From Gammaproteobacteria bacterium (GTDB taxonomy: Bacteria; Pseudomonadota; Gammaproteobacteria; Eutrophobiales; Eutrophobiaceae): 64,000 nucleotides of DNA. Numbering within the stretch: position 1 is the stretch's first letter; every line of letters begins with the position of its first letter. The notes beneath the pieces were generated by a model, which was given only the letters and a program-made list of their open reading frames with translations, made no database searches and was not told where the DNA came from. Position numbers and translations under genes: made by a program. The stretch spans positions 2,392,325 to 2,456,324 of the forward strand of contig CBDEUD010000003.1 of NCBI GenBank assembly GCA_965243115.1, read 5' to 3'. Positions 13,142 to 41,077 of this stretch are shown here, piece by piece.

Positions 13142-14200
13142 CTAACCTGTTTCTGTTAATCGGGCTTGCGCCTTTTTATCTTCATAGAACTCCAGCGCCC
13201 GTTGCCAGGTCTTGCCGTCTGGTAATTCCAGCAATGCGCCCAACAGTTGCGCGGAAAAATCTTCACTGCTTTCCTTTGGCAACATCGAAGGCAAATGGTC
13301 TATGGCTATCAGGTCCAGGACGGGTTTGTCTCTGAGGCGTAGCGCCGGCCTTACGAATGTTGTGCAGTCAGTATAAACCGGTAGCGGGTTATAGACACTG
13401 TACGGGTCGCAACTGACGTCGACTACACTGGTGAGCAAGCGCTCTTTCTCCAGCAGGTCATTGGTTATAAACGGTCGGGTGTCTGATTGAAGCAGTACGC
13501 AGTTTATCAGCATATCGTGCTCAAGTATTTCAACAAACGGGCCTCCTTCTACCGTTTCTTCCAGGTCCCACAAGGTAGTTTCCAAACCCAGGCTGTGGCA
13601 GAAGTCCGTAGCGCCGCGACCGGAGCGCCCTTTGGCTCCGACGATTATGACCCGAGGATACATGCCGGACTTCTTCAGCAAATCAGATGCTTCTACCAGC
13701 AGTTGATTCTTGTCGGGATAACTGCGGACAGGTTGCAGCTTCCCAGGTTGCGCCAGCCGGTTCATTACACCCAGGGCGGCACCTGCAAAACCCGCCCAGT
13801 AACCGAATGCGGCGATGCGCCTGCCGTTTTCGTCCAGCAGGTATTCCAGGTCGAGCAACTGCCCGCCATCTTCGGCAAACCTGCACAGCAAAGCCGTCCA
13901 GCCCGTTTGCTGCTTGTAGGCGTGGCCGAAATAGATATGCCTGTGACACAGTGCGGGTAATGGCTCCGGCAATTCCTTGAGGCCGAGAACATAACAGTCT
14001 AGCGGGGCATCCGGCCAGGAAGCGGCCGGAACGATACGGCAACCCGCCTGCCGGTATTGCCGGGTATCGAACACCCGGTTACCGCACTCTTCAACGGACA
14101 CGCTAAAGCCTGCTGCAATCAGTTCCCCCGCCGCGGCAGGGGCCAGCGCAACCCTGCGTTCGAACGGCTTGGATTCGGCGCGCAGCCATAAATGGGGCAT
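13142..14200 (-). CDS. saccharopine dehydrogenase (L-lysine-forming) / LYS1-like, AlaDH-PNT family
   Basis: HLWLRAESKPFERRVALAPAAAGELIAAGFSVSVEE aligns with yeast Lys1 HLRAETKPLEARAALTP..LIAKGF.IYVED. Further matches: LGLKELPE, DLEYLLDENGRRIAAFGYWAGFAGAALGV, IIVGAKGRSGRGA, IDHLPSMLPKESSE. Confidence 0.8.
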   Translation of the reverse strand: MPHLWLRAESKPFERRVALAPAAAGELIAAGFSVSVEECGNRVFDTRQYRQAGCRIVPAASWPDAPLDCYVLGLKELPEPLPALCHRHIYFGHAYKQQTGWTALLCRFAEDGGQLLDLEYLLDENGRRIAAFGYWAGFAGAALGVMNRLAQPGKLQPVRSYPDKNQLLVEASDLLKKSGMYPRVIIVGAKGRSGRGATDFCHSLGLETTLWDLEETVEGGPFVEILEHDMLINCVLLQSDTRPFITNDLLEKERLLTSVVDVSCDPYSVYNPLPVYTDCTTFVRPALRLRDKPVLDLIAIDHLPSMLPKESSEDFSAQLLGALLELPDGKTWQRALEFYEDKKAQARLTETG

Positions 14201-14261
14201 GATTTACGCGGTGGGCTTGAAATCTCGGATTAAGTCAGGATTTCCTTTATCTCATGCGCTA

Positions 14262-14558
14262 CTAATTTGCTGCCTGTACGTGTAATTTAACTCCCAGGGC
14301 CTTGATGATCTTTATCACTGTCGTAAAGGACGGATTGCCCTCCGATGACAACGCCTTGTATAACCCTTGCCGTGTCATCCCGGTGCTTTCTGCCAACCTG
14401 CCCATGCCTTTTGCACGGGCAATATTATTCAACGCGGTACGGATCAGGGCGCCATCACCGGTGTCCTCTTCCATGCATGCATCCAGGTACAAGGCCATGT
14501 CTTCTTCAGTATGAAGATAATCAGTAACATCATACGGGGTCAGTTTTACTTCAGCCAT
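14262..14558 (-). CDS. addiction-module antidote protein (HigA/XRE-like, TIGR02684-type antitoxin)
   Basis: 98 aa. MAEVKLTPYDVTDYLHTEEDMALYLDACMEE...ALNNIARAKGMGRLAESTGMTRQGLYKALSSEGNPSFTTVIKIIKALG is the typical sequence of this antidote family. It overlaps the stop of the upstream toxin ORF. Confidence 0.8.
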   Translation of the reverse strand: MAEVKLTPYDVTDYLHTEEDMALYLDACMEEDTGDGALIRTALNNIARAKGMGRLAESTGMTRQGLYKALSSEGNPSFTTVIKIIKALGVKLHVQAAN

Positions 14559-14737
14559 CTACGTACCTCCCCGGCTATTTCAAGAGCCTGTTCAATAACA
14601 CCTTTACCTACCGCTCGGCAATCACCCAGGTTACCTTGTTGAACATTTTCCAGACGCGCCGCGATTTTCGCTTTTGCTTGCCTGTCCCGCAATCCTCTGA
14701 GCCATTTGCCAAAGACTTCCGTTGTCTGAACCAACAT
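14546..14737 (-). CDS. addiction-module killer protein (RelE/ParE-superfamily, TIGR02683-like), apparently internally deleted
   Basis: N-terminus MLVQTTEVFGKWLRGLRDRQAKAKIAARLENVQQGNLGDCRAVGKGV matches the family, but the protein is only 63 aa. The conserved SELRIDYGPGYRVYF...GGDKSTQ core is missing. Confidence 0.55.
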   Translation of the reverse strand: MLVQTTEVFGKWLRGLRDRQAKAKIAARLENVQQGNLGDCRAVGKGVIEQALEIAGEVRRWLK

Positions 14738-14747
14738 GGCGATATAG

Positions 14748-14763
14748 TAAACTATAGTTTACA
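14748..14763. promoter_or_regulatory. perfect 16-bp palindrome GTAAACTATAGTTTAC, candidate TA-module operator
   Basis: Self-complementary 16-mer 11 bp upstream of the toxin start codon. Autoregulatory operators at this position are typical for type II TA operons. Confidence 0.5.
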
Positions 14764-14814
14764 CTAATGTCAATGCTTTTATGCTGGCAACATGTTTCCC
14801 TGGCACATTCGCAA

Positions 14815-16122
14815 TCAATTCGTCGGCCAACTGAACACCCTCACCGCGCCTTCGGAAACGTCGAGTTCGCACTTCACCATCTCTCCTTTGCGGATGATGG
14901 CCGGCAGCGCCGCACCGTCCCGTTCCAGCAGGGAAATGTCTTCCAGGGGATTGCCGTCCACAACCAGCAGGTCGGCAAACGCCCCTTCCCTGATACAACC
15001 GAGCCTGTCGGGTTCCATCAGGATCTCGGCGTTGACTGCCGTGGCCTGGTGAAGGATCTCAAATGGCGTGAAGACTTGTTTCCTGATAGCAAATTCCGTG
15101 CATTGCCGTACATGTTGCGCGCCCAGCAGGTCCGTACCCAGGCCCATTTTCACACCGGCAGCGCGCATGGTTTCCAGACCATCCATAGCCTGGGCGTAAA
15201 CAAGCTTGACTTTTTCCTGGCCAGCTGGCGGCAGACCATACTTGGCGCCTTCTTCATGAAGTGCGAACAGTACTGCAAAAGTGGGAACGACGTAGGCATT
15301 CCGGCCGGCCACATAGTCCGCGGTTTCCTTGTCAATCAGGGTCGCATGCTCGATACAGCGCACCCCGAACTCCACACAACGCCTGACCGCTTCGGTCGGG
15401 TGGCAATGGGCTGACACGTAGGTTTCCTGACGTGCGCATTCATCCACCGCAGCGCGAATCTCTTCTTCGGTAAACTGTGTGTGGTGCAGTGGATCATTGG
15501 GACTGACTACACCACCAGACCCCATTATCTTTATGCAATGGGAGCCCTTTCTCAATTCGTCGCGTACTGCGCGCCGCATTTCATAAGGATCATCGACAAT
15601 GCGCGTCAGTTTGGTCGAATAGTTGCCACAGGTACAAAGTTGATCCGATGGATCCACTTCCCAGCCCGGGCGCATATCGCCGTGCCCCCCGGTTTGCGAC
15701 ATGATTTTTCCTGCGTAATAAAAACGCGGGGCACGCACCAGTCCATGGTCGATAGCGCGGGAGATTCCGACGTCACCGCCCCCAATATCGCGTATCGTTG
15801 TAAATCCCCGAGCCAGGGTCGCATTGAGAAACACATTGGCATACTGGGCAATATACGTCTCCGGCATCCTGGATAGCGCCGTCGTATCCAGGGTGGGGAT
15901 ACATACATGGATATGATTATCTATCAGACCGGGTATCACGGTGCGACCCCCGGCATCGACCACGTGATCGCTCCGGCTGCCTGTCTCGCTCGTGGAGATT
16001 TCTTTGATCTCGCCATCCGCCAGCAAGATGTTGGAACGGTCCGACAGTTCCGGGCTATGTCCGTCAAATATATGCGCATTTTTTATAAGTATCGATTCAC
16101 TGGTCATCTCTGTCATTCTCAT
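14815..16122 (-). CDS. amidohydrolase-family metal-dependent hydrolase
   Basis: IPGLIDNHIHV metal-binding HxH motif near the N-terminus, 435 aa, with further His/Asp positions. The start overlaps the upstream gene by 4 bp (ATGA). Confidence 0.8.
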   Translation of the reverse strand: MRMTEMTSESILIKNAHIFDGHSPELSDRSNILLADGEIKEISTSETGSRSDHVVDAGGRTVIPGLIDNHIHVCIPTLDTTALSRMPETYIAQYANVFLNATLARGFTTIRDIGGGDVGISRAIDHGLVRAPRFYYAGKIMSQTGGHGDMRPGWEVDPSDQLCTCGNYSTKLTRIVDDPYEMRRAVRDELRKGSHCIKIMGSGGVVSPNDPLHHTQFTEEEIRAAVDECARQETYVSAHCHPTEAVRRCVEFGVRCIEHATLIDKETADYVAGRNAYVVPTFAVLFALHEEGAKYGLPPAGQEKVKLVYAQAMDGLETMRAAGVKMGLGTDLLGAQHVRQCTEFAIRKQVFTPFEILHQATAVNAEILMEPDRLGCIREGAFADLLVVDGNPLEDISLLERDGAALPAIIRKGEMVKCELDVSEGAVRVFSWPTN

Positions 16123-16979
16123 ATTTCGGTCAGTTTGAAATCATAGACTTCTTCAGCACTGATTGCAGCACCCTCACCCAGTTCTGTGCCCAGGTCGGCC
16201 AGGCCTGCCTGTAAACTCTCCGGATCGACATATCCATTCGGCGTATAACAGGGCAAGATCAATTCATAGGTTTTTACCGCATCCTCATGGGAGATATTCA
16301 TTGCATCCTGAAGAATGGAATGGATATCAGCCGGTGAATCGCGGATGACGGCCAAGCTCCGCCGGTAGACGCCGACCAGGCGTTCCACCAAACCGGGATC
16401 TTCCTCCGCGATCTTTTCAGTAGTGGCGATACCGCTGGTCACAAACCTTATCTCGTCTCCCACTAGGCTAAGGATATTCAATCCCAGCCGTTGTACCGTC
16501 ACCGGCGAGACAGCGGAACTGATCAGCGCCGCATCCACAGCGCCTGCGCGCAGCAGGCCGAGACGGATGGCATCATCCCGGGTCGGTTTCAACTCGACAT
16601 CCGTATCGGGATCGAGGCCATGGTTGCGCACGGCGATGCGGTTGAACCAGTATGGCGGGGCAAGCGGCGGGTAGGTCGCGATACGCTTACCGGCAAGCTG
16701 TTCGACGCCGTCCGTCCCTGCAGCGCCATATAACCAGAACATCGGTTTGGTAACGGCAGCCAGATAAACCCTGAAAGAAACGTTTTGAGAAAAAGCCGCG
16801 GCGCCGCAGGCAACCTGGAAATAATCCGCAACCGGAAGCTTGTCATCCGGCGTAAACGTGGTATCGACCAGTCTTACGTCCAGGCCTGCAGATGCATAAA
16901 AACCGCCGCGCCGGGCGACAAAATGGCACAGCAGTTCATGAATATCAAATGCCTTGATACCGCATTCGATGGTTTTCAT
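16119..16979 (-). CDS. NMT1/THI5-like or SsuA-like substrate-binding-fold protein (no signal peptide)
   Basis: 286 aa with a periplasmic-binding-protein type 2-like sequence character. Assigned by general resemblance only. Confidence 0.4.
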   Translation of the reverse strand: MKTIECGIKAFDIHELLCHFVARRGGFYASAGLDVRLVDTTFTPDDKLPVADYFQVACGAAAFSQNVSFRVYLAAVTKPMFWLYGAAGTDGVEQLAGKRIATYPPLAPPYWFNRIAVRNHGLDPDTDVELKPTRDDAIRLGLLRAGAVDAALISSAVSPVTVQRLGLNILSLVGDEIRFVTSGIATTEKIAEEDPGLVERLVGVYRRSLAVIRDSPADIHSILQDAMNISHEDAVKTYELILPCYTPNGYVDPESLQAGLADLGTELGEGAAISAEEVYDFKLTEI

Positions 16980-16991
16980 TTGCTGGTTATG

Positions 16992-17225
16992 TCATTCAAG
17001 AGGCAGGATGTTGTGCGAGTAGTCTTCCGGTTCCAGGGTTGTGAGGTTTGCCCGGGACTGGCGCATCCCGTAAGTTGTCACGGTTTCAGGTTCACAATCG
17101 CGCCAGGTGAAAGAACAATCCAGGCAATGGTACACGGTCCAGACAACCGTGTCGCCATGCAGCCCCTGGCGTTCCACCCGGCAACGGTCGGCTTCTGCAG
17201 CACAGCGGGGACATTGGATATTCAT
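16992..17225 (-). CDS. BsdD/VdcD-like small zinc-ribbon protein (phenolic acid decarboxylase subunit D paralog)
   Basis: CPRC...C..CSFTWRDCEPE matches B. subtilis BsdD (CPRC...CQTCFFTWRSCEPE). ~45% identical to the ORF at 39363-39596 in this same window. Confidence 0.7.
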   Translation of the reverse strand: MNIQCPRCAAEADRCRVERQGLHGDTVVWTVYHCLDCSFTWRDCEPETVTTYGMRQSRANLTTLEPEDYSHNILPLE

Positions 17226-17313
17226 ATAATTGGACTATAATACATAGGTTGAACAGTTAGTTGAAGATCGCTTAACATTTATCCATCCCGTACTTATTTA
17301 TTCTCTGACCCCG

Positions 17314-18621
17314 ATGAAACAACTGATTATCCCGGTTATCCTGCTTTTCCTGGCGCAGCAGGTACACGCTGACGATCCGCCGTTATATCCCTATCCCGCT
17401 CCGGAAGATATTACCCTGGAAGACATCGTTCCCGCAGCGATGGACAATCTCAGCCGGCCGGGATACGTTCCCGGAATGAAGCCGGGGGAAAAGGTCTTGA
17501 TCGTTTCCGATCGTTCCGTGGATCCGCTGGCTGCCGAAGCCTTCTACGTTGCCGCGTGGCGCCTGGGCGCAAGCCAGGTGGATACGATTATGCTGCAAGG
17601 CCGCCTGGACGTGACCGACCCTACTGAACTGGTCCTCGAGATCTTCGAGAAAGATCCGTGGCCGCAATGGGTATGGGACACCGCCGCGGGTTATGACAGG
17701 GTATTGCCGTTGTCCTTTATCAACCCGGTCAACCTGATGCCGGCCGTCAACGTTCCCGGCGTCGGCTGGAAGAACAAATGGGCCCACGATACCGATACCG
17801 TGCTTCACATGCTGTGGAATACGCACCAGCAACGCCAGCGCCTCGCCGCCAACAGGGACTACCCCGATGAACTTGTCTGGGCGCTGATCCGCAAGGGTTA
17901 CGACACCATGCGCAGCGGTAAAAAATTTCACCTGACCGATCCCAACGGCACGGACCTGCGGTGGACGCTGGATGAGCAGATGTGGGAAGGTTATAACGAG
18001 TTATGGGGTGATATCGTCAACAACCACTCGCCGCGAATCCACCTCAGTGACAACCCGGAAATGCAAGGCGTTTTCGTATCGGACCACCTGCATTCCGGCC
18101 GTATCCCTACAATTGAACTGCACATTGATAAAGGCAAGGTCACAGAGGTAAAAGGCGGCGGCAGCATGGGTGATTACCTGCGCACCGCGTTTGAAAAATA
18201 CAAGGACGTCCAGTACCCGCACTTCCCCGGCCCGGGGGTTAACTGGGTGGAGTACCTGGTCTGGGGTTTTTACCCGGTCCCCGGTTACGAACCGCTGCCG
18301 GACATCCCGGAGATGGCCTGGTCCGGCAAGTGGTGGACCTACAACATCGACCTGAAAGCGGGCTTGGTCCATATTGCCGTCGGCACGACGGCCGGCGGAT
18401 TTACCGCGGAATTCACCAGGGAGCACGGCTATCCCGTGCATCACAAGGACTTCGTGATCTACCGGCCGACGTTGACGGTGGACGGGGAAGTAATCATCGA
18501 GCGCGGCCACCTCACGGCGCTGGATGACCCGGAGATCCGCGCCATCGCCGCCAAATACGGCGATCCGGACACGCTGCTGAAACAACCGTGGAGCCCGGAT
18601 CAGGACCCGCGTTTCAGGTAA
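17314..18621 (+). CDS. exported hypothetical protein (signal peptide), family not recognised
   Basis: N-terminal signal MKQLIIPVILLFLAQQVHA. 435 aa. No diagnostic motif that I can name with confidence. Confidence 0.45.
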   Translation: MKQLIIPVILLFLAQQVHADDPPLYPYPAPEDITLEDIVPAAMDNLSRPGYVPGMKPGEKVLIVSDRSVDPLAAEAFYVAAWRLGASQVDTIMLQGRLDVTDPTELVLEIFEKDPWPQWVWDTAAGYDRVLPLSFINPVNLMPAVNVPGVGWKNKWAHDTDTVLHMLWNTHQQRQRLAANRDYPDELVWALIRKGYDTMRSGKKFHLTDPNGTDLRWTLDEQMWEGYNELWGDIVNNHSPRIHLSDNPEMQGVFVSDHLHSGRIPTIELHIDKGKVTEVKGGGSMGDYLRTAFEKYKDVQYPHFPGPGVNWVEYLVWGFYPVPGYEPLPDIPEMAWSGKWWTYNIDLKAGLVHIAVGTTAGGFTAEFTREHGYPVHHKDFVIYRPTLTVDGEVIIERGHLTALDDPEIRAIAAKYGDPDTLLKQPWSPDQDPRFR

Positions 18622-18634: not shown

Positions 18635-20080
18635 TCACGGCAACATCCTTTCAATGGATTGCACGAACCGGCTGTAGTTGCGGCGACGCCCGCTTGAGCG
18701 GGTGTGGAGTTCGTCCCGCACCTGCCACACGCTGGCTGTTTTCACCAGGCCGGCCGTCTCCCGGAACGACAAACACCGGTCATCCCATTCCAGCCCCAGG
18801 AAATGCAGCAATCGCCGCACTGTCTGTTCCGGTGAGGCCACGAGTTCATCGTAGTCGACCGTAAAGATGTTTTCTGCGAAACAGCTTTGCCAGTGCGCCA
18901 TCAACCGTTCGTGCTGCCGGTAGTAATGGGCAGTGTCTTCCAGGCCGGTGGCATAACTGAGGTTGCCGCCGAGTTGCTGGAAGTATATCGACAGGCAGTT
19001 ATCAACCGCGTTGCGCTTGGTATAGACGATACGCGCGGCCGGAAACAGGGCCTTGACCAGGCCCAGGTGCAGGAAGTTGTCCGGCCGCTTGTCGGTGATG
19101 CGGTCTGCGCCAGGAAACTGCATCCGCAACCTGGACAGGTATTCCTGTCCCAGTTTATCCAGCTTTTCCCGCGCCGCGCCCGCGACTCCGTCCGGGTACG
19201 GTGCCAGCCTCTCCGCCACCAGCCACGGCAGGTAATCCAGTTCACCGGCGGCGGTGATCGACGGATGACCTGCCAGGACCTGCTCGATGAGGGTCGAACC
19301 GGAGCGGAACATGCCGCAGATGAAGATCGGTGTTGCCGTTGAAGCGGTAGTTACCCGCCTGATCCATTCGGGTGTAAACAGTTCGACTATCCGCTCGAAG
19401 CCCTGCTCCGCGGCGCCCCTGTCATAGGGTTGATTGCGCAGCCTGCCCATGTCGTTGGCGGTGCGGTACGCCGCGAAGGCGTCCTCGTACTGCCCGAGAT
19501 CGTCCAACGCCTTGCCCAGTGCAAAACAGAGTCCCTCTCTTGCCAGGGGGTCGTTGCCTGCATCCGCTGCCGCGCGCCTGAGTGATTCGACCAGCCCCCC
19601 GTCAGCGTCCGTTATCGTCCTTGCCCGGGCGAGCCGCGCCAGCGCATCACAGTGTCCGGGATCAATAGCGAGTATCCGTCCATATAATTCCGTTGCCCCT
19701 TGTCTTTCTCCCAATTCCTCAAACAGCCCGGCTAGGTTGAACAGCGCAGGAACATAAGCGGGATCGATGTTGAGGGCGCGCTCGTACATCTCCCTGGCTT
19801 GCGCCGGTTGACGCATCTCGGAATACAACACGCCCATGTTGGAATAGACTTCCTGAACATCGTCAATACCGTGTCTTATGGCCTCCCCGTAGGCGCTCAC
19901 GGCGTCAGCATATCGCTTGCCCTTCTTGTACAGCAACGCCAGGTTGAAATGGGCAACCGCATGCCCGGGCTGCCGTTTCAGCAGGCGCCGGTATTGGCTG
20001 ATTGCCTCATCCGTCCGGCCAAGTCCGTCCAGCAGGCCGGCGCGTTCAAATACCTGTTGGAATTCCGTATGCGATTTCAC
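18635..20080 (-). CDS. TPR-repeat protein with C-terminal sulfotransferase domain
   Basis: N-terminal TPR-like repeats (AHFNLALLYKKGKRYADAVSAYGEAI...). C-terminal PAPS-binding 5'-PSB motif FRSGSTLIEQVL. Confidence 0.8.
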   Translation of the reverse strand: MKSHTEFQQVFERAGLLDGLGRTDEAISQYRRLLKRQPGHAVAHFNLALLYKKGKRYADAVSAYGEAIRHGIDDVQEVYSNMGVLYSEMRQPAQAREMYERALNIDPAYVPALFNLAGLFEELGERQGATELYGRILAIDPGHCDALARLARARTITDADGGLVESLRRAAADAGNDPLAREGLCFALGKALDDLGQYEDAFAAYRTANDMGRLRNQPYDRGAAEQGFERIVELFTPEWIRRVTTASTATPIFICGMFRSGSTLIEQVLAGHPSITAAGELDYLPWLVAERLAPYPDGVAGAAREKLDKLGQEYLSRLRMQFPGADRITDKRPDNFLHLGLVKALFPAARIVYTKRNAVDNCLSIYFQQLGGNLSYATGLEDTAHYYRQHERLMAHWQSCFAENIFTVDYDELVASPEQTVRRLLHFLGLEWDDRCLSFRETAGLVKTASVWQVRDELHTRSSGRRRNYSRFVQSIERMLP

Positions 20081-20109
20081 GAGTTACACATTTCCCGGTA
20101 TTGGGGGCT

Positions 20110-21990
20110 TCAGTCTCTGTTGTTTTCACCATGGACCGGAACCACATCGAACGCCACGCTCATGCGCGCTTCATCCGCTTCAAAGGGCACCGTTCCGTGC
20201 CACATATAAGAGGGAAACAGTACCAATCGCCCGGTAGACGGCTGGATAACCCGGCGCGCCTCACCATAACTGCCGAGATCAATATCCGGTTCACCGAACT
20301 TTATCCCTCCACCGTTAGCCCCGGAGCCGGTGATAGCTGCCGGCACCTGGACATAACAGGCGGAACTGATCCATCCCAGCGGATGCACGTGCATGGTATG
20401 GTAACCATTTCTTTGCAAACGCACCGACCAGGACGCGGCAAAACTGAAACGCTCACAGCGGCGTAACAAGAGGGGATGTTCCGGGTCGCGCGGAAGCCGT
20501 TCGATATAGTCCCGGATGCAATGTTCCAGGCAGGTGACCAGTTCCCCGATCTCCGGTTCACCCCGGTCGAACAGGTCGCCGTGGGTCTGCGTCCCGCCTC
20601 GTAATGTCTGCTCGGGGGGATGGCGTTTGCCAAGGTGCAGGGAGTTGAGGGTGTCGCTTAATTTCCCGTTGAATTGTTCCGCATCGGCGTATCTTGCAGG
20701 CGCAGGCACGTCATAAACCCGGATAAATTTTTCGTAATCGTTGAGGATACCGTCCCGTTCGTCGTCCAGCATGCGCCAGCACAGCCCCAGGTAAGCGATG
20801 GCCCGCTGGTTGAACGGTATCTCCCGTATTGCCTGTTCGGCGTGAGGTAACGCCTCGTCCGGCCGCCGGCAGGCCAGCAATGCCCGCGCGTAGCTGACGC
20901 GATGGTTGGGCACTACTTCCGGCGCGGCCGCCGCGTCCCCATGCATCGCCAGTGCCTCATCCCAACGCTGCTGTCCTTCCAGGGTATAGCCAAGCTGGCT
21001 CTTGAGTTCGCTGGAATCCGGCGTATAGCGCAGCCCCTGTCTCAATACCCGTTCCGCCTCCTCGAATGCCCCCTTCTGATTCAGGGCAACCGCACAGGCC
21101 ATGGCAAGTTGTTCCGAGCCCGGGCGTTTGACCAGAGCCTCATGGTAGGACTTCAGGTGCTCTCCCAGCAGTTCCTGCTCCCACAACAGCGTATTCAGGT
21201 TACGATGGCTGGTGATGTCCTCGGGATTCCGCTTTATTGCGGCTCGGTAGGAGTCCATGGCGCTGCCGATATCCAGGGAATCAACCTGGGTGCTGCCGAG
21301 GTTCTGGTACAGTTCGGCCCGGTCCAGGCCCAGCCGGCGGGCAGCTTGCAAGTGTTTGATCGCATCGGACGGGCGTTGCCTGGCCCGCAGGCAAACACCC
21401 AGGTTGTGGTGCGCCTCGGCATAATCCGGACGCAGTTCGAGGGCCTTTTGGTAATTTTGAATCGCCTGATCGAAATCATCCTGTTGCTTGAATACGTTAC
21501 CGAGGCCCAGGCAGGCGGCGGCATCACCGGGACGGAGTTCCAGGCAACGCCGAAAGGATGTTCCGGCCGTCTCATAGCGTCCCTGTTCCAGGCAGCATAA
21601 GCCCAGGTTCCGCCACGCATCGACGTAACGGGGATGCAATCTCACCGCCTCGGAGTAGCTTTGCGCGGCTTCCTCATGCCTGCCGCTCAGGGACAGCGCA
21701 TTGCCCAGGTTGTTGGCGACCTCGGCCTGCTGCGGAAACCGGCGCAGGGATTCCCGCATAAATTCGATGGCGGTCTGGTATTCCCCGCGCTGCGAGTGGA
21801 GCAACCCCACGAGCTGCAGCGCCGTCGGATGGTCCGGATGCTGCGCCAGAAAGCGGTAATAGAGCGGCTCGGCCGCATCCAGGTTACCGGCTTCATGATC
21901 GGCTATAGCCTGTTGCAGCAAGGGTGGAAACCTGGATGAACTTTTTATCGCCATATATCGGTATGTCCGGCCACATGAACAGCGCGCCAA
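20110..21990 (-). CDS. TPR-repeat protein with C-terminal 2OG-Fe(II) oxygenase-like domain (TIGR02466-like)
   Basis: Multiple TPR units (AEAHHNLGVCL, AELYQNLGSTQ etc.). C-terminus HVHPLGWISSACYVQVP...LVLFPSYMWHGTVPF...RMSVAFDV resembles the small PhyH-like 2OG oxygenase family. Confidence 0.7.
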   Translation of the reverse strand: MARCSCGRTYRYMAIKSSSRFPPLLQQAIADHEAGNLDAAEPLYYRFLAQHPDHPTALQLVGLLHSQRGEYQTAIEFMRESLRRFPQQAEVANNLGNALSLSGRHEEAAQSYSEAVRLHPRYVDAWRNLGLCCLEQGRYETAGTSFRRCLELRPGDAAACLGLGNVFKQQDDFDQAIQNYQKALELRPDYAEAHHNLGVCLRARQRPSDAIKHLQAARRLGLDRAELYQNLGSTQVDSLDIGSAMDSYRAAIKRNPEDITSHRNLNTLLWEQELLGEHLKSYHEALVKRPGSEQLAMACAVALNQKGAFEEAERVLRQGLRYTPDSSELKSQLGYTLEGQQRWDEALAMHGDAAAAPEVVPNHRVSYARALLACRRPDEALPHAEQAIREIPFNQRAIAYLGLCWRMLDDERDGILNDYEKFIRVYDVPAPARYADAEQFNGKLSDTLNSLHLGKRHPPEQTLRGGTQTHGDLFDRGEPEIGELVTCLEHCIRDYIERLPRDPEHPLLLRRCERFSFAASWSVRLQRNGYHTMHVHPLGWISSACYVQVPAAITGSGANGGGIKFGEPDIDLGSYGEARRVIQPSTGRLVLFPSYMWHGTVPFEADEARMSVAFDVVPVHGENNRD

Positions 21991-22001
21991 TCATAACCCA
22001 T

Positions 22002-22030
22002 AAAAAGAAACGGCGGGCATATGCCCACCG
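22002..22030 (-). terminator. rho-independent terminator downstream of the large TonB receptor gene
   Basis: On the minus strand: stem CGGTGGGCAT/ATGCCCGCCG (one mismatch, contains the palindrome GGGCATATGCCC) followed by TTTCTTTTT. Confidence 0.6.
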
Positions 22031-22053
22031 TCCCTTAACCAACCACTACGCCC

Positions 22054-25020: not shown

Positions 25021-25078
25021 GCAATACTCATTTTTTTTTCATGAAATCCTCATAAGTATAGTACATCAAGATATAAAA

Positions 25079-25135
25079 GATATATGAATATTTATTCATA
25101 ATTAATGTCGATATATATGAATATTTATTCATAAT
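25079..25135. promoter_or_regulatory. two direct copies of a 23-bp unit, each containing the palindrome ATGAATA-TT-TATTCAT, in the TonB receptor promoter region
   Basis: gatatatgaatatttattcataat at 25079-25102 and again at 25112-25135. Lies in the AT-rich region immediately upstream of the TonB receptor start codon. Confidence 0.55.
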
Positions 25136-25177
25136 GGATGTTGTTACTTAAATACAATATAGCCCGGACAAGAGGCT

Positions 25178-27163
25178 TTATTTGACTCGTGCCACACCTA
25201 CTTTAACCAGTGGACCGAGCGTGTCTTTCAACGGACCCAGCCATGGTTCGTAATGGCGCCAGTGATCGATACCGTCACGAAAGATGGGAGAGCGCACCTG
25301 CTCCGAACTCGCAGTGCTGACGTCACGGTCATTTTTGTAAAATTGCAGGCACGACTCCTCGTAGGGCAGTTCGCAGTATTGCAGCAGCCTGCGTACTTCG
25401 GCCTCGGTATCCGTGACCAGTGATTCGTAAATAATGCGGTGTACCCGCCCCGGGAGTACCACATCGAAATGGGCCATCAGTTCCACGTAATCCCGGTAAT
25501 AGCGCCCGATATCCTGCAGGTCGTAACTGAAATTCTGCGCACGCGCAAAATGTTCCTTGAATAACGACAAACCGCATGCCAGAGGGTGGCGCCGCACGTC
25601 GATGATACGCGCATTCGGCAATATCAGGTGGACAAACCCCACGTGGATGAAATTGTTGGGCATCTTGTCGATGAAGAACGGGGCGCCACGTTTGCGCTGA
25701 ACGCGAGTCTGCCCAATATATGTATCACCAAGCTCACGCAGCGTGTCTTCTTCCAGATTTTCCAACACTTCCGGATATCTCGTTTCATTCGGGGCCGGTT
25801 TCCATTCTTCAAGTGACATCGTAATTGCCGCGATATCGGGGAGTTCCATGGTGCCTTCGACGCTGGAGTGGCTTGACAGGATCTGTTCTACCAGTGTCGA
25901 ACCGGTGCGCGGCAGACCCAGGATGAATATGGGTTCTGGCGTACTCGCACCGGACGAGGAGCGGCCGGCAAAAAACCCGGGTGTGAACAGCGCGATGCAA
26001 CGGCGCACGTAATCAGAGAGTTCATCGGCATTGTAGCGCCTGTGTTTCCGGCACAGCCGGTTGCCATCGGCATAATGCCGAAAGGAATCGGCAAATTCAG
26101 CTTTATCTTCCAGGGCCTTGCCAATCGCGAAGTTAAAATGTATTCGATCCTCATCGTTGAGACCTGGCCTTGCCAGTTGCGTATGCATGGCTTCAAGTTC
26201 CGGCCGGGTAAATTCCAATGTCTTCAAGCTCGCCAGACCCCAGTACGGTTCGCCGAAATGCGGCGCCTGTGCAATAGCCTTGCGATAAGCGTTGGCGGAT
26301 TCCGTGCGGCGGCCAACCGTTTTCAGCATATGCCCCAGACTGGTCCAGACCGTGATTTGGCCCGGATCCTCATCAACAAGGTTTTCACAAATCTCGATGG
26401 CCTCCCCGTATTCACGCAGCCGCGCCAGAATGGCTGCCTTCAGCTTACGCAATTCCGCATTGTCCGGATCTGCCGCGAGCAACCGGTCGGCCTCCTGCAA
26501 GGCGTCAGGGGCCTTGTTCAGGCGCAACAGTACTACGGCGTAATTGTGACGTGCGCGCCGGTAACCGGGAGCGAGTTGCAGGCATCGTTCAAGCAAGGTC
26601 TCCGCCTCTCTCATCCTGTTATTACGCTCGGCAACATCCGCCAGCAGGCACAGGGCGACGATGTCGGCAGGGTGTTGTTCGATGTGATTGCGCAACCGGG
26701 TTTCAGCTTCTGCAACGCGGCCCTCTTTGAGAGCGGCAGCAGGTTCCCGCAAGTGCGGGTCATTTGTCGAATAACGTACATACGCGCTGAAAGCCTCATC
26801 CGCACCATCCCTGTCTTCCAGCGCGGTAAGAAGATCCGCCAGCGCCAGCCAGGCGTCTGAAAAATCCGGTTTTACGGTCACGGCGCGGCGCATCGATTGC
26901 ACCGCGCTTTCGTTCTGCTTCAGTTCGCGCAGCGCAAGACCTAACTGCAGGTGAACCAGTGGCGCGTCCGGAGAACTTGCGGACAACTTTGTCAGTATCT
27001 CGACCGCCGCATCCAGGTTGCCTGCCAGGCGGCTCGCGATGCCCCGGAACAACGAGGCCATCCGGTGCCCGGGAACGGCAGTCAGGAACTCGGCCGCCAG
27101 GGCCTCGGCCCGGACGGGATCAGACCGTAACAACTGCTCTATCTGCCGGAGCCTGGCATTCAT
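25178..27163 (-). CDS. TPR-repeat protein with sulfotransferase domain (paralog of 18635-20080)
   Basis: PAPS-binding motif LGLPRTGSTLVEQIL. Long N-terminal TPR region. The C-terminal region is similar to the other sulfotransferase. Confidence 0.8.
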   Translation of the reverse strand: MNARLRQIEQLLRSDPVRAEALAAEFLTAVPGHRMASLFRGIASRLAGNLDAAVEILTKLSASSPDAPLVHLQLGLALRELKQNESAVQSMRRAVTVKPDFSDAWLALADLLTALEDRDGADEAFSAYVRYSTNDPHLREPAAALKEGRVAEAETRLRNHIEQHPADIVALCLLADVAERNNRMREAETLLERCLQLAPGYRRARHNYAVVLLRLNKAPDALQEADRLLAADPDNAELRKLKAAILARLREYGEAIEICENLVDEDPGQITVWTSLGHMLKTVGRRTESANAYRKAIAQAPHFGEPYWGLASLKTLEFTRPELEAMHTQLARPGLNDEDRIHFNFAIGKALEDKAEFADSFRHYADGNRLCRKHRRYNADELSDYVRRCIALFTPGFFAGRSSSGASTPEPIFILGLPRTGSTLVEQILSSHSSVEGTMELPDIAAITMSLEEWKPAPNETRYPEVLENLEEDTLRELGDTYIGQTRVQRKRGAPFFIDKMPNNFIHVGFVHLILPNARIIDVRRHPLACGLSLFKEHFARAQNFSYDLQDIGRYYRDYVELMAHFDVVLPGRVHRIIYESLVTDTEAEVRRLLQYCELPYEESCLQFYKNDRDVSTASSEQVRSPIFRDGIDHWRHYEPWLGPLKDTLGPLVKVGVARVK

Positions 27164-37269: not shown

Positions 37270-37839
37270 ATGAAACGAATCATTATCGGCATGTCCGGGG
37301 CCAGCGGCCTGCCCTACGGGGTGCGCCTGGTGCAAGTGCTGGCCGATTTACCGGACATCGAAACCCACCTGGTCATGACCAATGCGGCCAAGTTGAACAT
37401 AGGTATTGAAACGGACCACAGTGTCGATGACGTAGAAGCTCTGGCAGACGTAGTACACAATATCCGGGACATCGCAGCCACCATTTCCAGCGGCTCATTC
37501 CGGACCGACGGCATGATCGTCGCTCCCTGCTCCATGCGAACGTTGTCGGCCATTACCAACTCCTATGCCGAAAACCTGCTGGTGCGGGCCGCCGACGTGG
37601 TCCTCAAGGAACGCCGGCGCCTGGTAATCATGCCGCGCGAGACCCCGCTGCACACGGGGCACTGCAAGTTATTCTACGAGGCGTCCGTTCTGGGGGCGAT
37701 CATCGCTCCGCCCATCCCGGCATTCTATAACCGCCCTGAGAGTATCGATGATATCGTCAACGCCAGTGTCGGCCGGGTGCTGGACCTGTTTGATATAGAA
37801 CCCGGAATCGTAAAGCGCTGGAAAGGCGTCAGAAACTGA
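37270..37839 (+). CDS. ubiX: UbiX/Pad1-family flavin prenyltransferase (VdcB/BsdB-like)
   Basis: MKRIIIGMSGASGLPYGVRLVQVL at the N-terminus is the UbiX FMN-binding signature. 189 aa. Confidence 0.9.
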   Translation: MKRIIIGMSGASGLPYGVRLVQVLADLPDIETHLVMTNAAKLNIGIETDHSVDDVEALADVVHNIRDIAATISSGSFRTDGMIVAPCSMRTLSAITNSYAENLLVRAADVVLKERRRLVIMPRETPLHTGHCKLFYEASVLGAIIAPPIPAFYNRPESIDDIVNASVGRVLDLFDIEPGIVKRWKGVRN

Positions 37840-39362: not shown

Positions 39363-39596
39363 CTATCCCCTATCCGCAGGCGGAATATTTTGCTTGTACT
39401 TCTCCGGATGGTCCGGATCGGCGCGGAACCACGCCTCCCGCTCGGCGTAATCAATCGATTCCGCGGGTTCGCTGTCGCGCCAGGTGAACGAACAGCGCCG
39501 GCAATAATATACGGTCCAGACCACTTCACCCCCTTCCCTGCCCTGGTATTCGGTGCGCAGGTGTTCCTGCGCTGATTGGCAACGGGGGCAGTTCAC
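39363..39596 (-). CDS. phenolic acid decarboxylase subunit D (BsdD/VdcD-like)
   Basis: MNCPRCQS...CRRCSFTWRDSEPAE zinc-ribbon motif. Immediately downstream of, and overlapping, the UbiD-family gene. Confidence 0.75.
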   Translation of the reverse strand: MNCPRCQSAQEHLRTEYQGREGGEVVWTVYYCRRCSFTWRDSEPAESIDYAEREAWFRADPDHPEKYKQNIPPADRG

Positions 39597-41077
39597 CGGT
39601 TTTCCGCCTCTTTCTGCAGCCGCATGATGTATTTGGCCAGGTCATCGATTTCGGCGCCTGCGGGAGGCGATACGATCTTGGCATCTCCGCCGATGGGATC
39701 GGGCGGCATGAAACTGGTGGCGTCGATGATCAGGCGGTGGCCCTTCCCCGGGATCTCCGCGGCCGGGTCGATGATCACCATGGGCATATTGGGAATGACG
39801 ATGATATCGCTGGCGCGGGTGCGCGTGGACAAGGCCCACATTACCTGGTTGAGGTCAAAGGGATCGACGTCGTCATCCACCATGATCAGGTTCTTCAGGT
39901 ACATCAGGCCGTGGGGCGTGCCCAGGGCCCGCATGGCCACCGATTTGGCAAATCCGGCGAACCGGTTCTTCACCGATATGATCCCGGTCAGGCCGTGCTG
40001 GTACAGGGCGTTCACCGCGACGACTTCGGGAAAGTTTTCCTTCAACTGGGCATAGATCGGGGCGCAGGTGCTGAGCCCGATCAGGGTATCGTGCTCGGTC
40101 CAGCCCTTGCCGATATAAATACTCTCGAAAATGGGGTCGGCACGGTGCGAAACGGCGGTCACGCGGAACAGGGGGACATGGCGAATACCGCTGTAGCTGC
40201 CCGGGAATTCGCCGAACGGCCCTTCCAGGCAGCGCCGGTTGTTCATAAGCTCAGCTTCAATCACCATTTCCGCGCCGGCAAGCACATCCAGGCCGTTGCC
40301 GGATTGGGTCAGTTCAATGGGGCTGCCCATCATCTGCGAGGCGTAGGCAAATTCCGATTCATCGTAATTTACCGGGGTGGCCGCGAACATGGCCATGGCG
40401 GGGTGGTTGCCGAGCATCACGGCGATCTTCAGCGGGACATCGTCCTGTTCCGCCATACGTATCTGCTGCGCCATATCGTGATTCGGGACAGACAACAAGG
40501 TGAACTGGTCCGGTCCCTGTACCTGGATGCGATAGATCCCCACGTTCTGCTTGGCAAAATTGTCCGGGTCGCGGGGGTCGCGGCTGACGATGTTGGCCTT
40601 GGCGATATAGAACCCGCCGTCCAGGGCATTGATGCGGTACAGCGGCAACAGGCCATACAGGTTGATATCCGTTTCGACCCTGTTTTCATGCACCGGCGCG
40701 TGTTCCTGTTTCACCCTGCTGATCAGCGGTTTGTCGGAACCCCAGCGCCCCGCCAGGTCGTAGAAAAGTTCCTTGATGCTGGTGCCTTTCGGCTTGCCCA
40801 GCAGCAGGGCTATATTGGAAAAACTGCCGTGTACTCCCACGACCAGTCTTTTGCCCGGGTAACCGCGGATCTTGTCGAATACGATCGCCGGGCCGGTCAT
40901 GGCGTCGCGCCCTGCCGCGACGACAACCTTGCGGATATCGGGTTCGGGCAGCACGGTTTCGGGCCAGGTAATGCACTGGCCGTACTCAGCCAGCAGTTCG
41001 AGATAGTCTCTTAAATTATGTATCCGCTCGGCTATGGCCCGGGCCTCGGGTGATAACGTGACGGTTTCCATGTCCAT
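39593..41077 (-). CDS. UbiD-family (prFMN-dependent) aromatic acid decarboxylase, VdcC/BsdC-like
   Basis: 494 aa. UbiD-family sequence character throughout. Flanked by the D subunit downstream and ubiX nearby. Confidence 0.85.
   Translation of the reverse strand: MDMETVTLSPEARAIAERIHNLRDYLELLAEYGQCITWPETVLPEPDIRKVVVAAGRDAMTGPAIVFDKIRGYPGKRLVVGVHGSFSNIALLLGKPKGTSIKELFYDLAGRWGSDKPLISRVKQEHAPVHENRVETDINLYGLLPLYRINALDGGFYIAKANIVSRDPRDPDNFAKQNVGIYRIQVQGPDQFTLLSVPNHDMAQQIRMAEQDDVPLKIAVMLGNHPAMAMFAATPVNYDESEFAYASQMMGSPIELTQSGNGLDVLAGAEMVIEAELMNNRRCLEGPFGEFPGSYSGIRHVPLFRVTAVSHRADPIFESIYIGKGWTEHDTLIGLSTCAPIYAQLKENFPEVVAVNALYQHGLTGIISVKNRFAGFAKSVAMRALGTPHGLMYLKNLIMVDDDVDPFDLNQVMWALSTRTRASDIIVIPNMPMVIIDPAAEIPGKGHRLIIDATSFMPPDPIGGDAKIVSPPAGAEIDDLAKYIMRLQKEAENR

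What the first reader, a model, noticed from the sequence alone, without database searches (positions are those of the whole stretch)
14815..17225. Orphan BsdD/VdcD-like zinc-ribbon gene heading an operon with an amidohydrolase instead of a UbiD decarboxylase
The 77-aa ORF at 16992-17225 carries the CPRC...C..C-FTWRD-EPE signature of the D subunit of reversible hydroxyarylic-acid decarboxylases. It is a paralog (~45% identity) of the canonical vdcD-like gene at 39363-39596, which sits with a UbiD enzyme. Here it is followed 12 bp later by an NMT1/SsuA-fold protein and, with a 4-bp ATGA overlap, by a 435-aa amidohydrolase, with no UbiD partner. Either the D-like protein has been recruited to a different enzyme, or it acts in trans on the distant UbiD/UbiX system 22 kb away.
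Basis: partly seen in the sequence, partly recalled or inferred. Interest (0 to 1): 0.5.

Follow-up and report, generated by a model that had tools for sequence, protein, structure and literature searches.

The report
Decarboxylase helper gene stranded by deletion
The small zinc-ribbon gene is a real helper subunit of an aromatic-acid decarboxylase, but it sits next to an amidohydrolase only because a roughly 14-kb deletion removed its own partner genes, so the layout is an evolutionary scar rather than a new enzyme partnership.

Summary
The ORF at 16992-17225(-), here called D1, is a VdcD/BsdD-family zinc ribbon (NCBIfam VdcD 46.5 bits, cutoff 30). It is 44% identical to the vdcD at 39363-39596. 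An SsuA/THI5-fold gene follows 12 nt later, then a cog1228 prolidase-like amidohydrolase with an ATGA overlap.

The "recruited to a new enzyme" reading is not supported. About 20 related loci carry the SsuA-fold/amidohydrolase pair without D1 directly upstream. In relatives, D1 orthologues (71-81% identical, often missed by gene callers) head D1-hydantoinase A-hydantoinase B-UbiD' operons or lie directly before UbiD'. They sit beside the same NicX-like gene, about 14 kb upstream of the SsuA-fold gene.

The window and four other loci (L001 and L048 may be one organism, so about four distinct genomes) share one identical junction. That points to a single deletion that fused D1 and its upstream region to an unrelated module.

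D1 is still under purifying selection between deletion-type genomes (dN/dS about 0.25; 0.10 in the zinc-ribbon core). It probably still works, most plausibly in trans on the remaining VdcC. That last step is inferred, not shown.

This is an ordinary family member in a deletion-made context. Interest is low to moderate.

The parts
16992..17225 (-). D1: a 77-aa VdcD/BsdD-family zinc-ribbon gene that has lost its cognate UbiD' partner.
   Evidence: NCBIfam VdcD 46.5 bits against a cutoff of 30. It is 44% identical to D2. Its orthologues lie next to or in an operon with UbiD' in L002, L041, L042 and L043. dN/dS between deletion-type genomes is 0.21-0.26.
16980..16991 (-). The 12-nt spacer CATAACCAGCAA, which marks the deletion junction between the D1 3' flank and the start codon of the NMT1-like gene.
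   Evidence: It is identical in the window, L001, L003 and L045. Its first bases match the start of the D1-HydA spacer in L043, CATTCCCAGCGA, at 9 of 12 positions. The native upstream sequence of the NMT1-like gene seen in relatives is absent.
17235..17253 (-). Conserved element TTCAACCTATGTATTATAG upstream of D1. It is promoter-like (TATTAT) and is a candidate native D1 promoter or operator that now precedes D1-NMT1-amidohydrolase.
   Evidence: It is conserved in the window, L003, L045 and the island-type locus L043 (ATCAACCTATGTATTATAG). The consensus promoter scan did not call it, so its function is inferred.
16119..16979 (-). A 286-aa cytoplasmic SsuA/THI5/DszB-fold (NMT1 family) protein. 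It belongs to a module that does not depend on D1.
   Evidence: Pfam NMT1 37.6 bits. There is no signal peptide. The AlphaFold2 model has pLDDT 87.8. Foldseek matches ThiY, THI5, TauA, SsuA and DszB at TM 0.69-0.77. It is present without D1 directly upstream in about 20 related loci.
14815..16122 (-). A 435-aa cog1228 prolidase-like amidohydrolase that overlaps the NMT1-like gene by ATGA.
   Evidence: Amidohydro_1 141.3 bits. PDB matches are 3mkv at E 5.6e-102 and 3feq/3n2c (named PROLIDASE) at 2.4e-93. NCBIfam Xaa-Pro dipeptidase NF051886 scores 228 bits, below its cutoff of 500. The overlap is seen.
17314..18621 (+). A divergently transcribed NicX-like gene (435 aa, N-terminal signal peptide). 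It is the conserved left-hand neighbour of D1 in both deletion-type and island-type genomes.
   Evidence: Faint PF26233 NicX hits on orthologues. It is 86-93% identical in L002, L003, L011, L017, L021, L041 and L045.
39363..39596 (-). D2: the canonical vdcD, overlapping vdcC.
   Evidence: NCBIfam VdcD 59.8 bits. It overlaps the UbiD gene by 4 bp.
39593..41077 (-). The VdcC-type UbiD decarboxylase. It is the only UbiD in the window and the candidate trans partner of D1.
   Evidence: NCBIfam VdcC 656.9 bits against a cutoff of 650. It scores 448 bits against ShVdcC 7ae4_A and keeps E45 and R148, equivalent to ShVdcC E31 and R133. It is the only UbiD hit in the window.
37270..37839 (+). The UbiX flavin prenyltransferase, which supplies prFMN.
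   Evidence: NCBIfam NF004685 263 bits against a cutoff of 188.

Best explanation
D1 is a genuine VdcD-type zinc-ribbon activator subunit. It originally headed an operon D1-hydantoinase A-like-hydantoinase B-like-UbiD' (a second, VdcC-like prFMN decarboxylase), located beside a NicX-like gene. In the ancestor of the window genome and the other deletion-type genomes, a single deletion of about 14 kb ran from 12 nt after the D1 stop codon to the start codon of the SsuA/THI5-fold gene. It removed HydA, HydB, UbiD', a formamidase-like gene, LigAB, a cupin gene, a sulfatase gene, a TonB receptor gene and an MFS transporter gene. This placed D1 and its native upstream region directly in front of a pre-existing, D-independent SsuA-fold/prolidase-like amidohydrolase module. 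The three-gene 'operon' is therefore a rearrangement scar and not a functional partnership. All of this is shown by comparative sequence evidence. The following part is inferred. D1 is still expressed and still useful, because its zinc-ribbon core has stayed under purifying selection since the deletion. The most likely role is binding and activating the remaining VdcC 22 kb away, or another UbiD elsewhere in the genome, in trans. A side effect of the deletion is that the SsuA-fold/amidohydrolase genes now lie behind the D1 upstream region.
For: 1. Family identity: VdcD HMM above cutoff, ShdD as best PDB match, PF26358 on a 97%-identical protein.
2. D1 orthologues have UbiD' partners. L002 has TetR-D1-UbiD'. 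L042 has D1-UbiD'. L041 and L043 have NicX-like<>D1-HydA-HydB-UbiD'. The L043 D1 also scores as VdcD and its UbiD' scores 620 bits on VdcC.
3. Collinearity. L043 reads TPR-sulfotransferase, NicX-like remnant, D1, then 14,170 nt, then the NMT1-like gene and the amidohydrolase. The window has the same order with 12 nt in place of the 14 kb. L046 and L047 (NMT1-like 88% and 83% identical) keep HydB-UbiD'-FmdA-LigBA-TonB-MFS upstream of the NMT1-like gene. The L046 downstream genes match the window.
4. The junction is identical in the window, L001, L003 and L045. The spacer resembles the first 12 nt after D1 in L043.
5. The NMT1-like/amidohydrolase pair lacks D1 directly upstream in about 20 related loci. 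In L017 and L021 the NicX-like gene abuts the NMT1-like gene with no D1.
6. Purifying selection between deletion-type genomes. Window versus L003 gives 13 synonymous and 13 non-synonymous changes, dN/dS 0.255, binomial p 0.002. Residues 1-49 give 0.10, p 0.0004. The ORF is intact in all five deletion-type loci.
7. Plausibility of trans action. Marshall et al. 2021 (PMC8379154) show that VdcD forms a stoichiometric activating complex with VdcC, and that a non-cognate VdcD (39% identical) gives limited activation. D1 keeps R42 and E45 (ShVdcD R36 and E39), and the window VdcC keeps their partners E45 and R148.
Against: The canonical VdcC already has its own overlapping D2, so a second activator looks redundant. 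No expression or interaction data exist. These genomes are recombination mosaics: window versus L001 is nearly identical in the NicX-like gene and D1 but has dS 0.26 in the NMT1-like gene, and the L045 D1 carries several island-type residues. Part of the apparent constraint could therefore have been imported from genomes where D1 still has its partner. The C-terminal tail shows no significant constraint (dN/dS 0.28-0.68), and the Pro-rich NIPPP motif has become NILPL in the window, L001, L003 and L048. I could not scan the rest of the window genome. The absence of UbiD' there rests on incomplete cluster listings. The direction of the event, deletion versus insertion, is inferred by parsimony.
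Confidence: 0.7

Rival explanations
1. Relic or leader ORF. D1 no longer has any protein function. It persists because the deletion made it the first cistron of the NMT1-like/amidohydrolase transcript, where its translation or its promoter is needed. The low dN/dS would then reflect alleles repeatedly imported by homologous recombination from genomes where D1 still serves UbiD'.
For: The deletion removed the native upstream region of the NMT1-like gene, including the GGAG seen in relatives, and left only 12 nt after the D1 stop. There is clear mosaicism around the junction. The L045 D1 shares several residues with island-type D1. The tail is relaxed and the Pro-rich motif is lost. D2 already serves VdcC.
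Against: Window versus L003 both carry the deletion-lineage substitutions (A12, V17, L74, L76). They still show 9 synonymous against 4 non-synonymous changes in the zinc-ribbon core (dN/dS 0.10, p 0.0004). A leader-ORF role would conserve reading-frame integrity but not amino acids. Shine-Dalgarno cores are rare in this window anyway (12 of 45 ORF starts), so the loss of GGAG says little.
Confidence: 0.2
2. Recruitment. The D-like zinc ribbon has become a subunit or activator of the SsuA/THI5-fold protein or of the amidohydrolase, so the three genes form a new functional unit.
For: The spacing is tight (12 nt, then an ATGA overlap) and the genes are co-oriented. The arrangement has been kept in about four distinct genomes with D1 under purifying selection. 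The SsuA-fold protein lacks a signal peptide and shares its fold with enzymes such as DszB and THI5.
Against: All deletion-type loci share one junction, so this is one event and not recurrent selection. The pair works without D1 directly upstream in about 20 related loci. The NMT1-like and amidohydrolase proteins of deletion-type genomes are no more different from island-type ones than from each other; the window's NMT1-like protein is 88% identical to island-type L046 and 84% to deletion-type L003 and L045. D1 retains the VdcC-contacting R/E pair.
Confidence: 0.07
3. Insertion rather than deletion. D1-NMT1-like-amidohydrolase is the ancestral arrangement, and the 14-kb HydAB-UbiD'-LigAB-TonB-MFS block was inserted between D1 and the NMT1-like gene in other lineages.
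For: Without a rooted species tree the polarity is formally open. The region is rearrangement-prone: there are NicX-like fragments in L017, a NicX-like remnant in L043, and REP-like palindromes.
Against: VdcD proteins are defined by partnership with a UbiD. D1 lies directly before UbiD' in L002 and L042. The island type is found across the more divergent genomes (NMT1-like 68-88% identical), whereas the short form has a single identical junction. In the island type the NMT1-like gene has its own upstream region with a palindrome and GGAG, which the window lacks.
Confidence: 0.03

Closest known systems
VdcD / BsdD / EcdD / ShdD, the small subunit of non-oxidative hydroxyarylic acid (vanillate/4-hydroxybenzoate) decarboxylases (NCBIfam NF041205, Pfam PF26358; structure 7ae4)
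   Same: The size is the same (77 aa). It has two CxxC pairs forming a zinc ribbon and the W-R-x-x-E block. The arginine and glutamate that make salt bridges to VdcC are present. The HMM score is above cutoff. Close orthologues sit with a VdcC-like UbiD.
   Different: In this genome it has no adjacent UbiD and is followed by unrelated genes. It is a second, 44%-identical paralogue alongside a canonical vdcD. The Pro-rich C-terminal motif is degraded (NIPPP to NILPL). Ancestrally it was separated from its UbiD' by two hydantoinase/caprolactamase-like genes, which is not the classic vdcBCD order.
cog1228 amidohydrolase-superfamily prolidases Sgx9260c (3mkv) and Sgx9260b (3feq/3n2c). Their Xaa-Pro and N-acyl-Pro hydrolase activity is from my recollection of Xiang et al. 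2010; the paper was not read here.
   Same: Full-length match at 345 and 316 bits, with the Amidohydro_1 domain.
   Different: It scores below the cutoff of the NCBIfam Caulobacter Xaa-Pro dipeptidase equivalog (228 against 500). The substrate is unknown. It is always paired with a cytoplasmic SsuA-fold gene, often with MFS transporter genes.
SsuA/ThiY/THI5/DszB class-II periplasmic-binding-protein fold (Pfam NMT1, PF09084)
   Same: Pfam NMT1 hit. The confident model matches ThiY-like 4nmy, THI5 4esx/4h6d, TauA 6ssy and DszB 2de2 at TM 0.69-0.77.
   Different: There is no signal peptide. Sequence identity to any solved structure is only 10-17%. No significant sequence hit appears in PDB. Whether it is a binding protein or an enzyme is undecided.

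Membership tests
VdcD/BsdD/EcdD (D subunit of hydroxyarylic acid decarboxylases) | Profile-HMM match above the curated cutoff | tested here: met
   NF041205 scores 46.5 bits against a cutoff of 30, E 2.5e-12. PF26358 is precomputed on the 97%-identical P0001.
VdcD/BsdD/EcdD (D subunit of hydroxyarylic acid decarboxylases) | Small protein (under about 10 kDa) with two conserved CxxC motifs forming a zinc ribbon | tested here: met
   It is 77 aa with C5-P-R-C8 and C34-L-D-C37. These are invariant in all 8 D1 sequences. Zinc binding itself was not tested.
VdcD/BsdD/EcdD (D subunit of hydroxyarylic acid decarboxylases) | Residues that make salt bridges to VdcC (ShVdcD R12, R36, E39) | tested here: met
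   The alignment to 7ae4 chain a places D1 R14, R42 and E45 at these positions (residues from PMC8379154). The alignment of R12 is less certain.
VdcD/BsdD/EcdD (D subunit of hydroxyarylic acid decarboxylases) | Encoded next to, or in an operon with, a VdcC-type UbiD | tested here: not met
   There is no UbiD within 22 kb and no UbiD remnant in the window. The feature is met by D1 orthologues in L002, L041, L042 and L043, so it has been lost secondarily.
VdcD/BsdD/EcdD (D subunit of hydroxyarylic acid decarboxylases) | Forms a stoichiometric complex with VdcC and is required for its activity | not testable with these tools
   This needs co-purification and reconstituted activity assays, as in PMC8379154.
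VdcD/BsdD/EcdD (D subunit of hydroxyarylic acid decarboxylases) | Proline-rich C-terminal tail at the C:D interface | tested here: inconclusive
   Island-type D1 and D2 have NIPPP/NIPPA. The window, L001, L003 and L048 have NILPL, and L045 has NIPPL. The tail is dispensable in ShVdcD.
cog1228 prolidase-type amidohydrolases | Full-length similarity to characterised members and the Amidohydro_1 domain | tested here: met
   3mkv at E 5.6e-102 and 3feq at 2.4e-93. PF01979 scores 141 bits.
cog1228 prolidase-type amidohydrolases | Equivalog-level HMM score (NCBIfam Xaa-Pro dipeptidase NF051886) | tested here: not met
   228.3 bits against a cutoff of 500. It is a family relative and not an equivalog.
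ABC-transporter periplasmic substrate-binding proteins of the SsuA/NMT1 type | N-terminal signal peptide or lipoprotein signal, and adjacent ABC permease and ATPase genes | tested here: not met
   The N-terminus MKTIECGIKAFDIHELLCHF is not hydrophobic and is invariant across homologues. The neighbours are MFS transporter or amidohydrolase genes and never ABC components. The fold itself is met.

The most novel reading that the evidence does not exclude
After losing its cognate UbiD', the stranded VdcD-type zinc ribbon has been kept by selection because it acquired a UbiD-independent job. Examples would be binding the cytoplasmic SsuA/DszB-fold protein or the prolidase-like amidohydrolase that it is now co-transcribed with. 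That would be the first case of a VdcD-family protein working outside a prFMN decarboxylase.
Probability: 0.07. Interest if true: 0.6.

Novelty: new member of a known kind. Interest (0 to 1): 0.27.

Why it matters
The main value is cautionary. A tight, overlapping three-gene 'operon' headed by a recognisable subunit looked like a new enzyme partnership. Comparative loci show it is the scar of one 14-kb deletion. There is also a small natural experiment for UbiD enzymology. A VdcD paralogue has survived under purifying selection after its own UbiD was lost, in a genome that still has a VdcC with its own VdcD. This makes the published in-vitro cross-activation of VdcC by non-cognate VdcD testable in a natural setting. 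Gene callers missed this 77-aa gene in four of the eight related loci that carry it, so orphan or unusually placed VdcD genes are probably under-counted. The ancestral D1-HydA-HydB-UbiD' operon seen in relatives, outside this window, is the more unusual object and may deserve its own study.

Tried and rejected
- The word-indexed protein search with D1 gave only 2 hits. This undercounts the family, because the small gene is often not called; D1 was found by tblastn or ORF listing in L003, L041, L043, L045 and L048.
- The metagenome scan with a D1 alignment returned a single locus, and it was D2-like. It added no arrangement statistics.
- The first AlphaFold2 model of the NMT1-like protein (14 sequences) was unusable at pLDDT 43.5. 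A third attempt with 87 database proteins gave pLDDT 87.8.
- Sequence-profile searches of the NMT1-like family against PDB gave nothing significant.
- I tried to decide whether UbiD' survives elsewhere in the window genome. An exact look-up of the window's NMT1-like protein found no indexed contig. Cluster listings show no UbiD' member on contigs of 3,947,688, 5,021,897 or 4,125,636 bp, but 86 of about 165 members were not listed. The result is suggestive only.
- I considered translational coupling as the reason for D1 retention. The NMT1-like gene has lost its GGAG, but only 12 of 45 ORF starts in the window have a Shine-Dalgarno core, so the argument is weak. It also would not explain amino-acid constraint.
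- I looked for relaxed or positive selection on the branch separating three deletion-type D1 (window, L001, L003; before L045 was fetched) from island-type D1. There were 6 synonymous and 7 non-synonymous fixed differences, which is no clear signal.
- Rfam found nothing in 14000-18000. The promoter and terminator scans were not above shuffled expectation.
- Literature searches for UbiD together with hydantoinase, oxoprolinase or acetophenone carboxylase found nothing relevant.
Full report
**1. The observation**

- D1 (16992-17225, minus strand) encodes 77 aa, with C5xxC8, C34xxC37 and FTWRDCEPE.
- The local Pfam copy has no model for it. It scores 46.5 bits (E 2.5e-12) on NCBIfam NF041205 'non-oxidative hydroxyarylic acid decarboxylases subunit D', whose cutoff is 30.
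- A 97%-identical database protein carries a precomputed PF26358 EcdD_BsdD_detox hit. The best solved-structure match is ShdD of the Sedimentibacter VdcCD complex (7ae4 chain a).
- D1 is 44% identical (33/75) to the 77-aa ORF at 39363-39596. That ORF scores 59.8 bits on the same model and overlaps a VdcC-type UbiD (39593-41077, 656.9 bits, cutoff 650). UbiX is at 37270-37839.
- The NMT1-family gene starts 12 nt after the D1 stop. The Amidohydro_1 gene overlaps it by ATGA.
- tblastn finds only one UbiD in the window and no remnant of another.

**2. The two downstream genes**

The 435-aa protein is a cog1228-type amidohydrolase.
- It matches the environmental prolidases 3mkv and 3feq/3n2c over its full length (E 5.6e-102 and 2.4e-93).
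- It stays below the equivalog cutoff of the NCBIfam Xaa-Pro dipeptidase model (228 against 500 bits).

The 286-aa protein has a weak NMT1 Pfam hit.
- It has no signal peptide and no significant sequence match in PDB.
- A first structure model was unusable. A model from 87 homologues is confident (pLDDT 87.8).
- That model matches the class-II binding-protein fold of ThiY-like, THI5, TauA, SsuA and DszB proteins at TM 0.69-0.77.
- Whether it is a binding protein or an enzyme remains open.

**3. Is the three-gene arrangement conserved?**

The NMT1-like protein has about 290 database relatives, mostly in uncultured Gammaproteobacteria. I fetched 48 loci and searched them by tblastn with the window's proteins.

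Within the clade whose NMT1-like protein is at least 68% identical, the NMT1-like gene is nearly always followed by the amidohydrolase. Sometimes an MFS transporter gene lies between them.

D1 directly upstream of the NMT1-like gene occurs only in the window, L001, L003, L045 and L048. L001 and L048 have identical D1 proteins and may be one organism. The gene callers had missed D1 in L003, L045 and L048; it was recovered by ORF listing and tblastn.

About 20 other loci have the pair without D1 directly upstream. In L017 and L021 the NicX-like gene abuts the NMT1-like gene through an unrelated 100-125-nt spacer. The pair therefore does not need D1.

**4. Where D1 comes from**

D1 orthologues (71-81% identical) are found with a UbiD' partner in four loci. 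UbiD' is 70% identical to the window VdcC.

| Locus | Arrangement |
|---|---|
| L002 | NicX-like <> double-TetR, D1, UbiD' |
| L042 | TonB receptor, D1, UbiD', 2 Rieske oxygenases, HydA, HydB, second UbiD' |
| L041 | NicX-like <> D1, HydA, HydB, UbiD' |
| L043 | NicX-like remnant <> D1, HydA, HydB, UbiD' |

- HydA and HydB are distant relatives of caprolactamase and acetophenone-carboxylase subunits. UbiD' scores 620 bits on VdcC, and the L043 D1 scores 49 bits on VdcD.
- In L043 the full order is: TPR-sulfotransferase, NicX-like remnant, D1, HydA, HydB, UbiD', formamidase-like, LigB, LigA, cupin, sulfatase, TonB receptor, MFS, NMT1-like, amidohydrolase.
- The window has the same order and orientation of TPR-sulfotransferase, NicX-like, D1, NMT1-like and amidohydrolase. 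It has 12 nt where L043 has 14,170 nt and L041 has 14,789 nt.
- L046 and L047 have NMT1-like proteins 88% and 83% identical to the window's. Both keep HydB-UbiD'-FmdA-LigBA-TonB-MFS in front of the NMT1-like gene.
- Downstream of the amidohydrolase, L046 continues with the same AlaDh_PNT, saccharopine dehydrogenase, DAO and SoxD genes as the window.

**5. The junction**

- In the window, L001, L003 and L045 the sequence from the D1 stop to the NMT1-like start is identical: TGA CATAACCAGCAA ATG.
- These 12 nt resemble the first 12 nt after D1 in L043 (CATTCCCAGCGA, 9 of 12 positions).
- The native region upstream of the NMT1-like gene in island-type relatives is absent. That region holds a palindrome, GGGGACGGATTTAAATCCGTCCCC, followed by GGAG.
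- Upstream of D1, the element TCAACCTATGTATTATAG is shared by deletion-type loci and L043.
- The simplest reading is one deletion, from 12 nt past D1 to the NMT1-like start codon. It left D1 and its own upstream region in front of a foreign module.
- Polarity (deletion rather than insertion) is inferred from three facts. VdcD proteins are defined by a UbiD partner. D1 abuts UbiD' in L002 and L042. The island type is spread over the more divergent genomes, whereas the short form has a single junction.

**6. Is D1 still functional?**

The ORF is intact in all deletion-type loci. The dN/dS comparisons are below.

| Comparison | dN/dS | Detail |
|---|---|---|
| Window vs L003, whole gene | 0.255 | 13 synonymous, 13 non-synonymous; binomial p 0.002 against neutrality |
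| Window vs L003, zinc-ribbon core (residues 1-49) | 0.10 | 9 synonymous, 4 non-synonymous; p 0.0004 |
| C-terminal tail (residues 50-77), pairs of deletion-type D1 | 0.28-0.68 | not distinguishable from neutral in 3 of 4 pairs (L003 vs L045, p 0.033) |
| Deletion-type genomes vs L045 | 0.21-0.23 | p about 1e-4 |
| Island-type pairs | 0.10-0.21 | for reference |

Window and L003 both carry the substitutions specific to the deletion lineage.

Caveats:
- The region is a recombination mosaic. Window versus L001 is nearly identical in the NicX-like gene and D1 but has dS 0.26 in the NMT1-like gene.
- The L045 D1 has several island-type residues. Some of the apparent constraint may therefore have been imported.
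- The Pro-rich tail motif NIPPP has become NILPL. In ShVdcD that tail is dispensable.

**7. How it most likely works now**

Marshall et al. 2021 (PMC8379154) showed three things about VdcD.
- It is a zinc-ribbon allosteric activator that forms a tight stoichiometric complex with VdcC.
- Salt bridges link D residues R12, R36 and E39 to C residues D173, E31 and R133.
- A non-cognate VdcD of 39% identity gives limited activation.

D1 keeps R42 and E45 at the R36 and E39 positions. The window VdcC keeps E45 and R148 at the E31 and R133 positions. D1 could therefore bind the remaining VdcC in trans. This is inference, not demonstration.

Whether a UbiD' survives elsewhere in this genome could not be settled.
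- The window VdcC is on a 3,947,688-bp NCBI contig.
- No listed member of the UbiD' clusters lies on that contig, or on the 5.02-Mb and 4.13-Mb contigs of L003 and L045.
- Only about half of the cluster members were listed.

**8. Comparison with what is known, and verdict**

D1 is a member of the VdcD/BsdD/EcdD family by HMM, motif and interface residues. The one defining feature it fails, adjacency to a UbiD, was lost secondarily. The downstream genes are a prolidase-like amidohydrolase and an SsuA/THI5/DszB-fold protein whose association predates D1 and does not depend on it.

The finding is a correct observation with an ordinary explanation: a stranded subunit gene at a deletion scar. The residual interest is that it has stayed under selection. 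The genuinely unusual object is the D1-HydA-HydB-UbiD' operon, for which I found no literature, and it lies in relatives rather than in this window.

Noticed in passing
L043:5330-11503, L041:4935-11134, L042:9751-19848 (relatives; not in the window): A VdcD-like gene heads an apparent operon with two hydantoinase/caprolactamase/acetophenone-carboxylase-like genes (HydA about 696 aa, HydB about 729 aa) and a VdcC-like UbiD (620 bits on VdcC, cutoff 650). It lies next to formamidase-like, LigAB and cupin genes. This pairs an ATP-dependent lactamase/carboxylase-type enzyme with a prFMN decarboxylase. Two literature searches found nothing on such a combination.
   Followed up: partly
L003:5755-5988, L041:4935-5165, L043:5330-5563, L045:9755-9988, L048:9755-9988: The 76-77-aa VdcD-like gene was not called by the gene callers of these assemblies, although it is intact and conserved. 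Protein-database searches therefore undercount this family: only 2 hits for D1 in 5.8 billion proteins.
   Followed up: yes
window 55087-55110; L043 about 9965-9990; upstream of the NMT1-like gene in L009, L012, L015, L041, L043, L046: A perfect-palindrome element, GGGGACGGATTTAAATCCGTCCCC, recurs in intergenic regions of this clade. There is one copy with 2 mismatches in the window, against 0 expected by chance. It looks REP-like and sits near the rearrangement-prone island.
   Followed up: partly
L023, L026, L032, L033, L040 (NMT1-like homologues of 35-40% identity): In four of these loci (L023, L026, L032, L040) the distant homologue of the cytoplasmic SsuA-fold protein lies immediately after a luciferase-like monooxygenase gene. 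In L026 (Pfam-checked) it lies before xanthine-dehydrogenase-type Mo-hydroxylase subunit genes, and L033 has ORFs of matching size. The pairing recalls DszA/DszB, and DszB is among the fold matches. The family may be enzymatic rather than a transporter component.
   Followed up: partly
window 16119-18621 compared with L001: The window and L001 are almost identical in the NicX-like gene (dS 0.027) and in D1 (no synonymous changes). They differ strongly in the adjacent NMT1-like gene (dS 0.26, 84% amino-acid identity). That implies a recombination breakpoint close to the deletion junction. The window's NMT1-like protein is closer to island-type L046 (88%) than to the other deletion-type loci.
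   Followed up: partly
window 17314-18621 (+): A 435-aa protein has a clear N-terminal signal peptide and no hit in the local Pfam or NCBIfam. Its orthologues carry only a faint PF26233 NicX (2,5-dihydroxypyridine dioxygenase-like) hit. It is highly conserved (dN/dS 0.08) and is fragmented or reduced to a remnant in L017 and L043.
   Followed up: no
window 14262-14737 (-): An HI1419/HI1420-type toxin-antitoxin pair lies between the amidohydrolase and the AlaDh_PNT gene (antidote 110.5 bits; the toxin, at 52.1 bits, is below its cutoff of 62.85). A similar pair is present in L003, but none was called in L045 and L048, so it is a variable insertion.
   Followed up: partly
window 18635-31169: A run of TPR-sulfotransferase and TPR-2OG-oxygenase fusion genes, a TonB receptor gene, a methyltransferase gene and a DUF885 gene separates the D1 region from the canonical vdc cluster. 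In relatives L018 and L019 the UbiD-D2-UbiX cluster lies only 2.5-5 kb upstream of the NMT1-like gene, so gene order here is fluid.
   Followed up: no
L041:9652-11134 and L041:13635-15954: UbiD' and a TonB receptor gene each appear split into two frames in this 11x long-read contig. This is either pseudogenisation or assembly indel errors, and I could not tell which.
   Followed up: no
window 37852-43154: The canonical vdcCD genes are flanked by two FAD-linked oxidase genes (479 and 556 aa; only the first was checked, PF01565 FAD_binding_4) and a 127-aa ORF with a CxxCH motif (not scanned). This is suggestive of a phenolic-compound oxidation and decarboxylation cluster.
   Followed up: no
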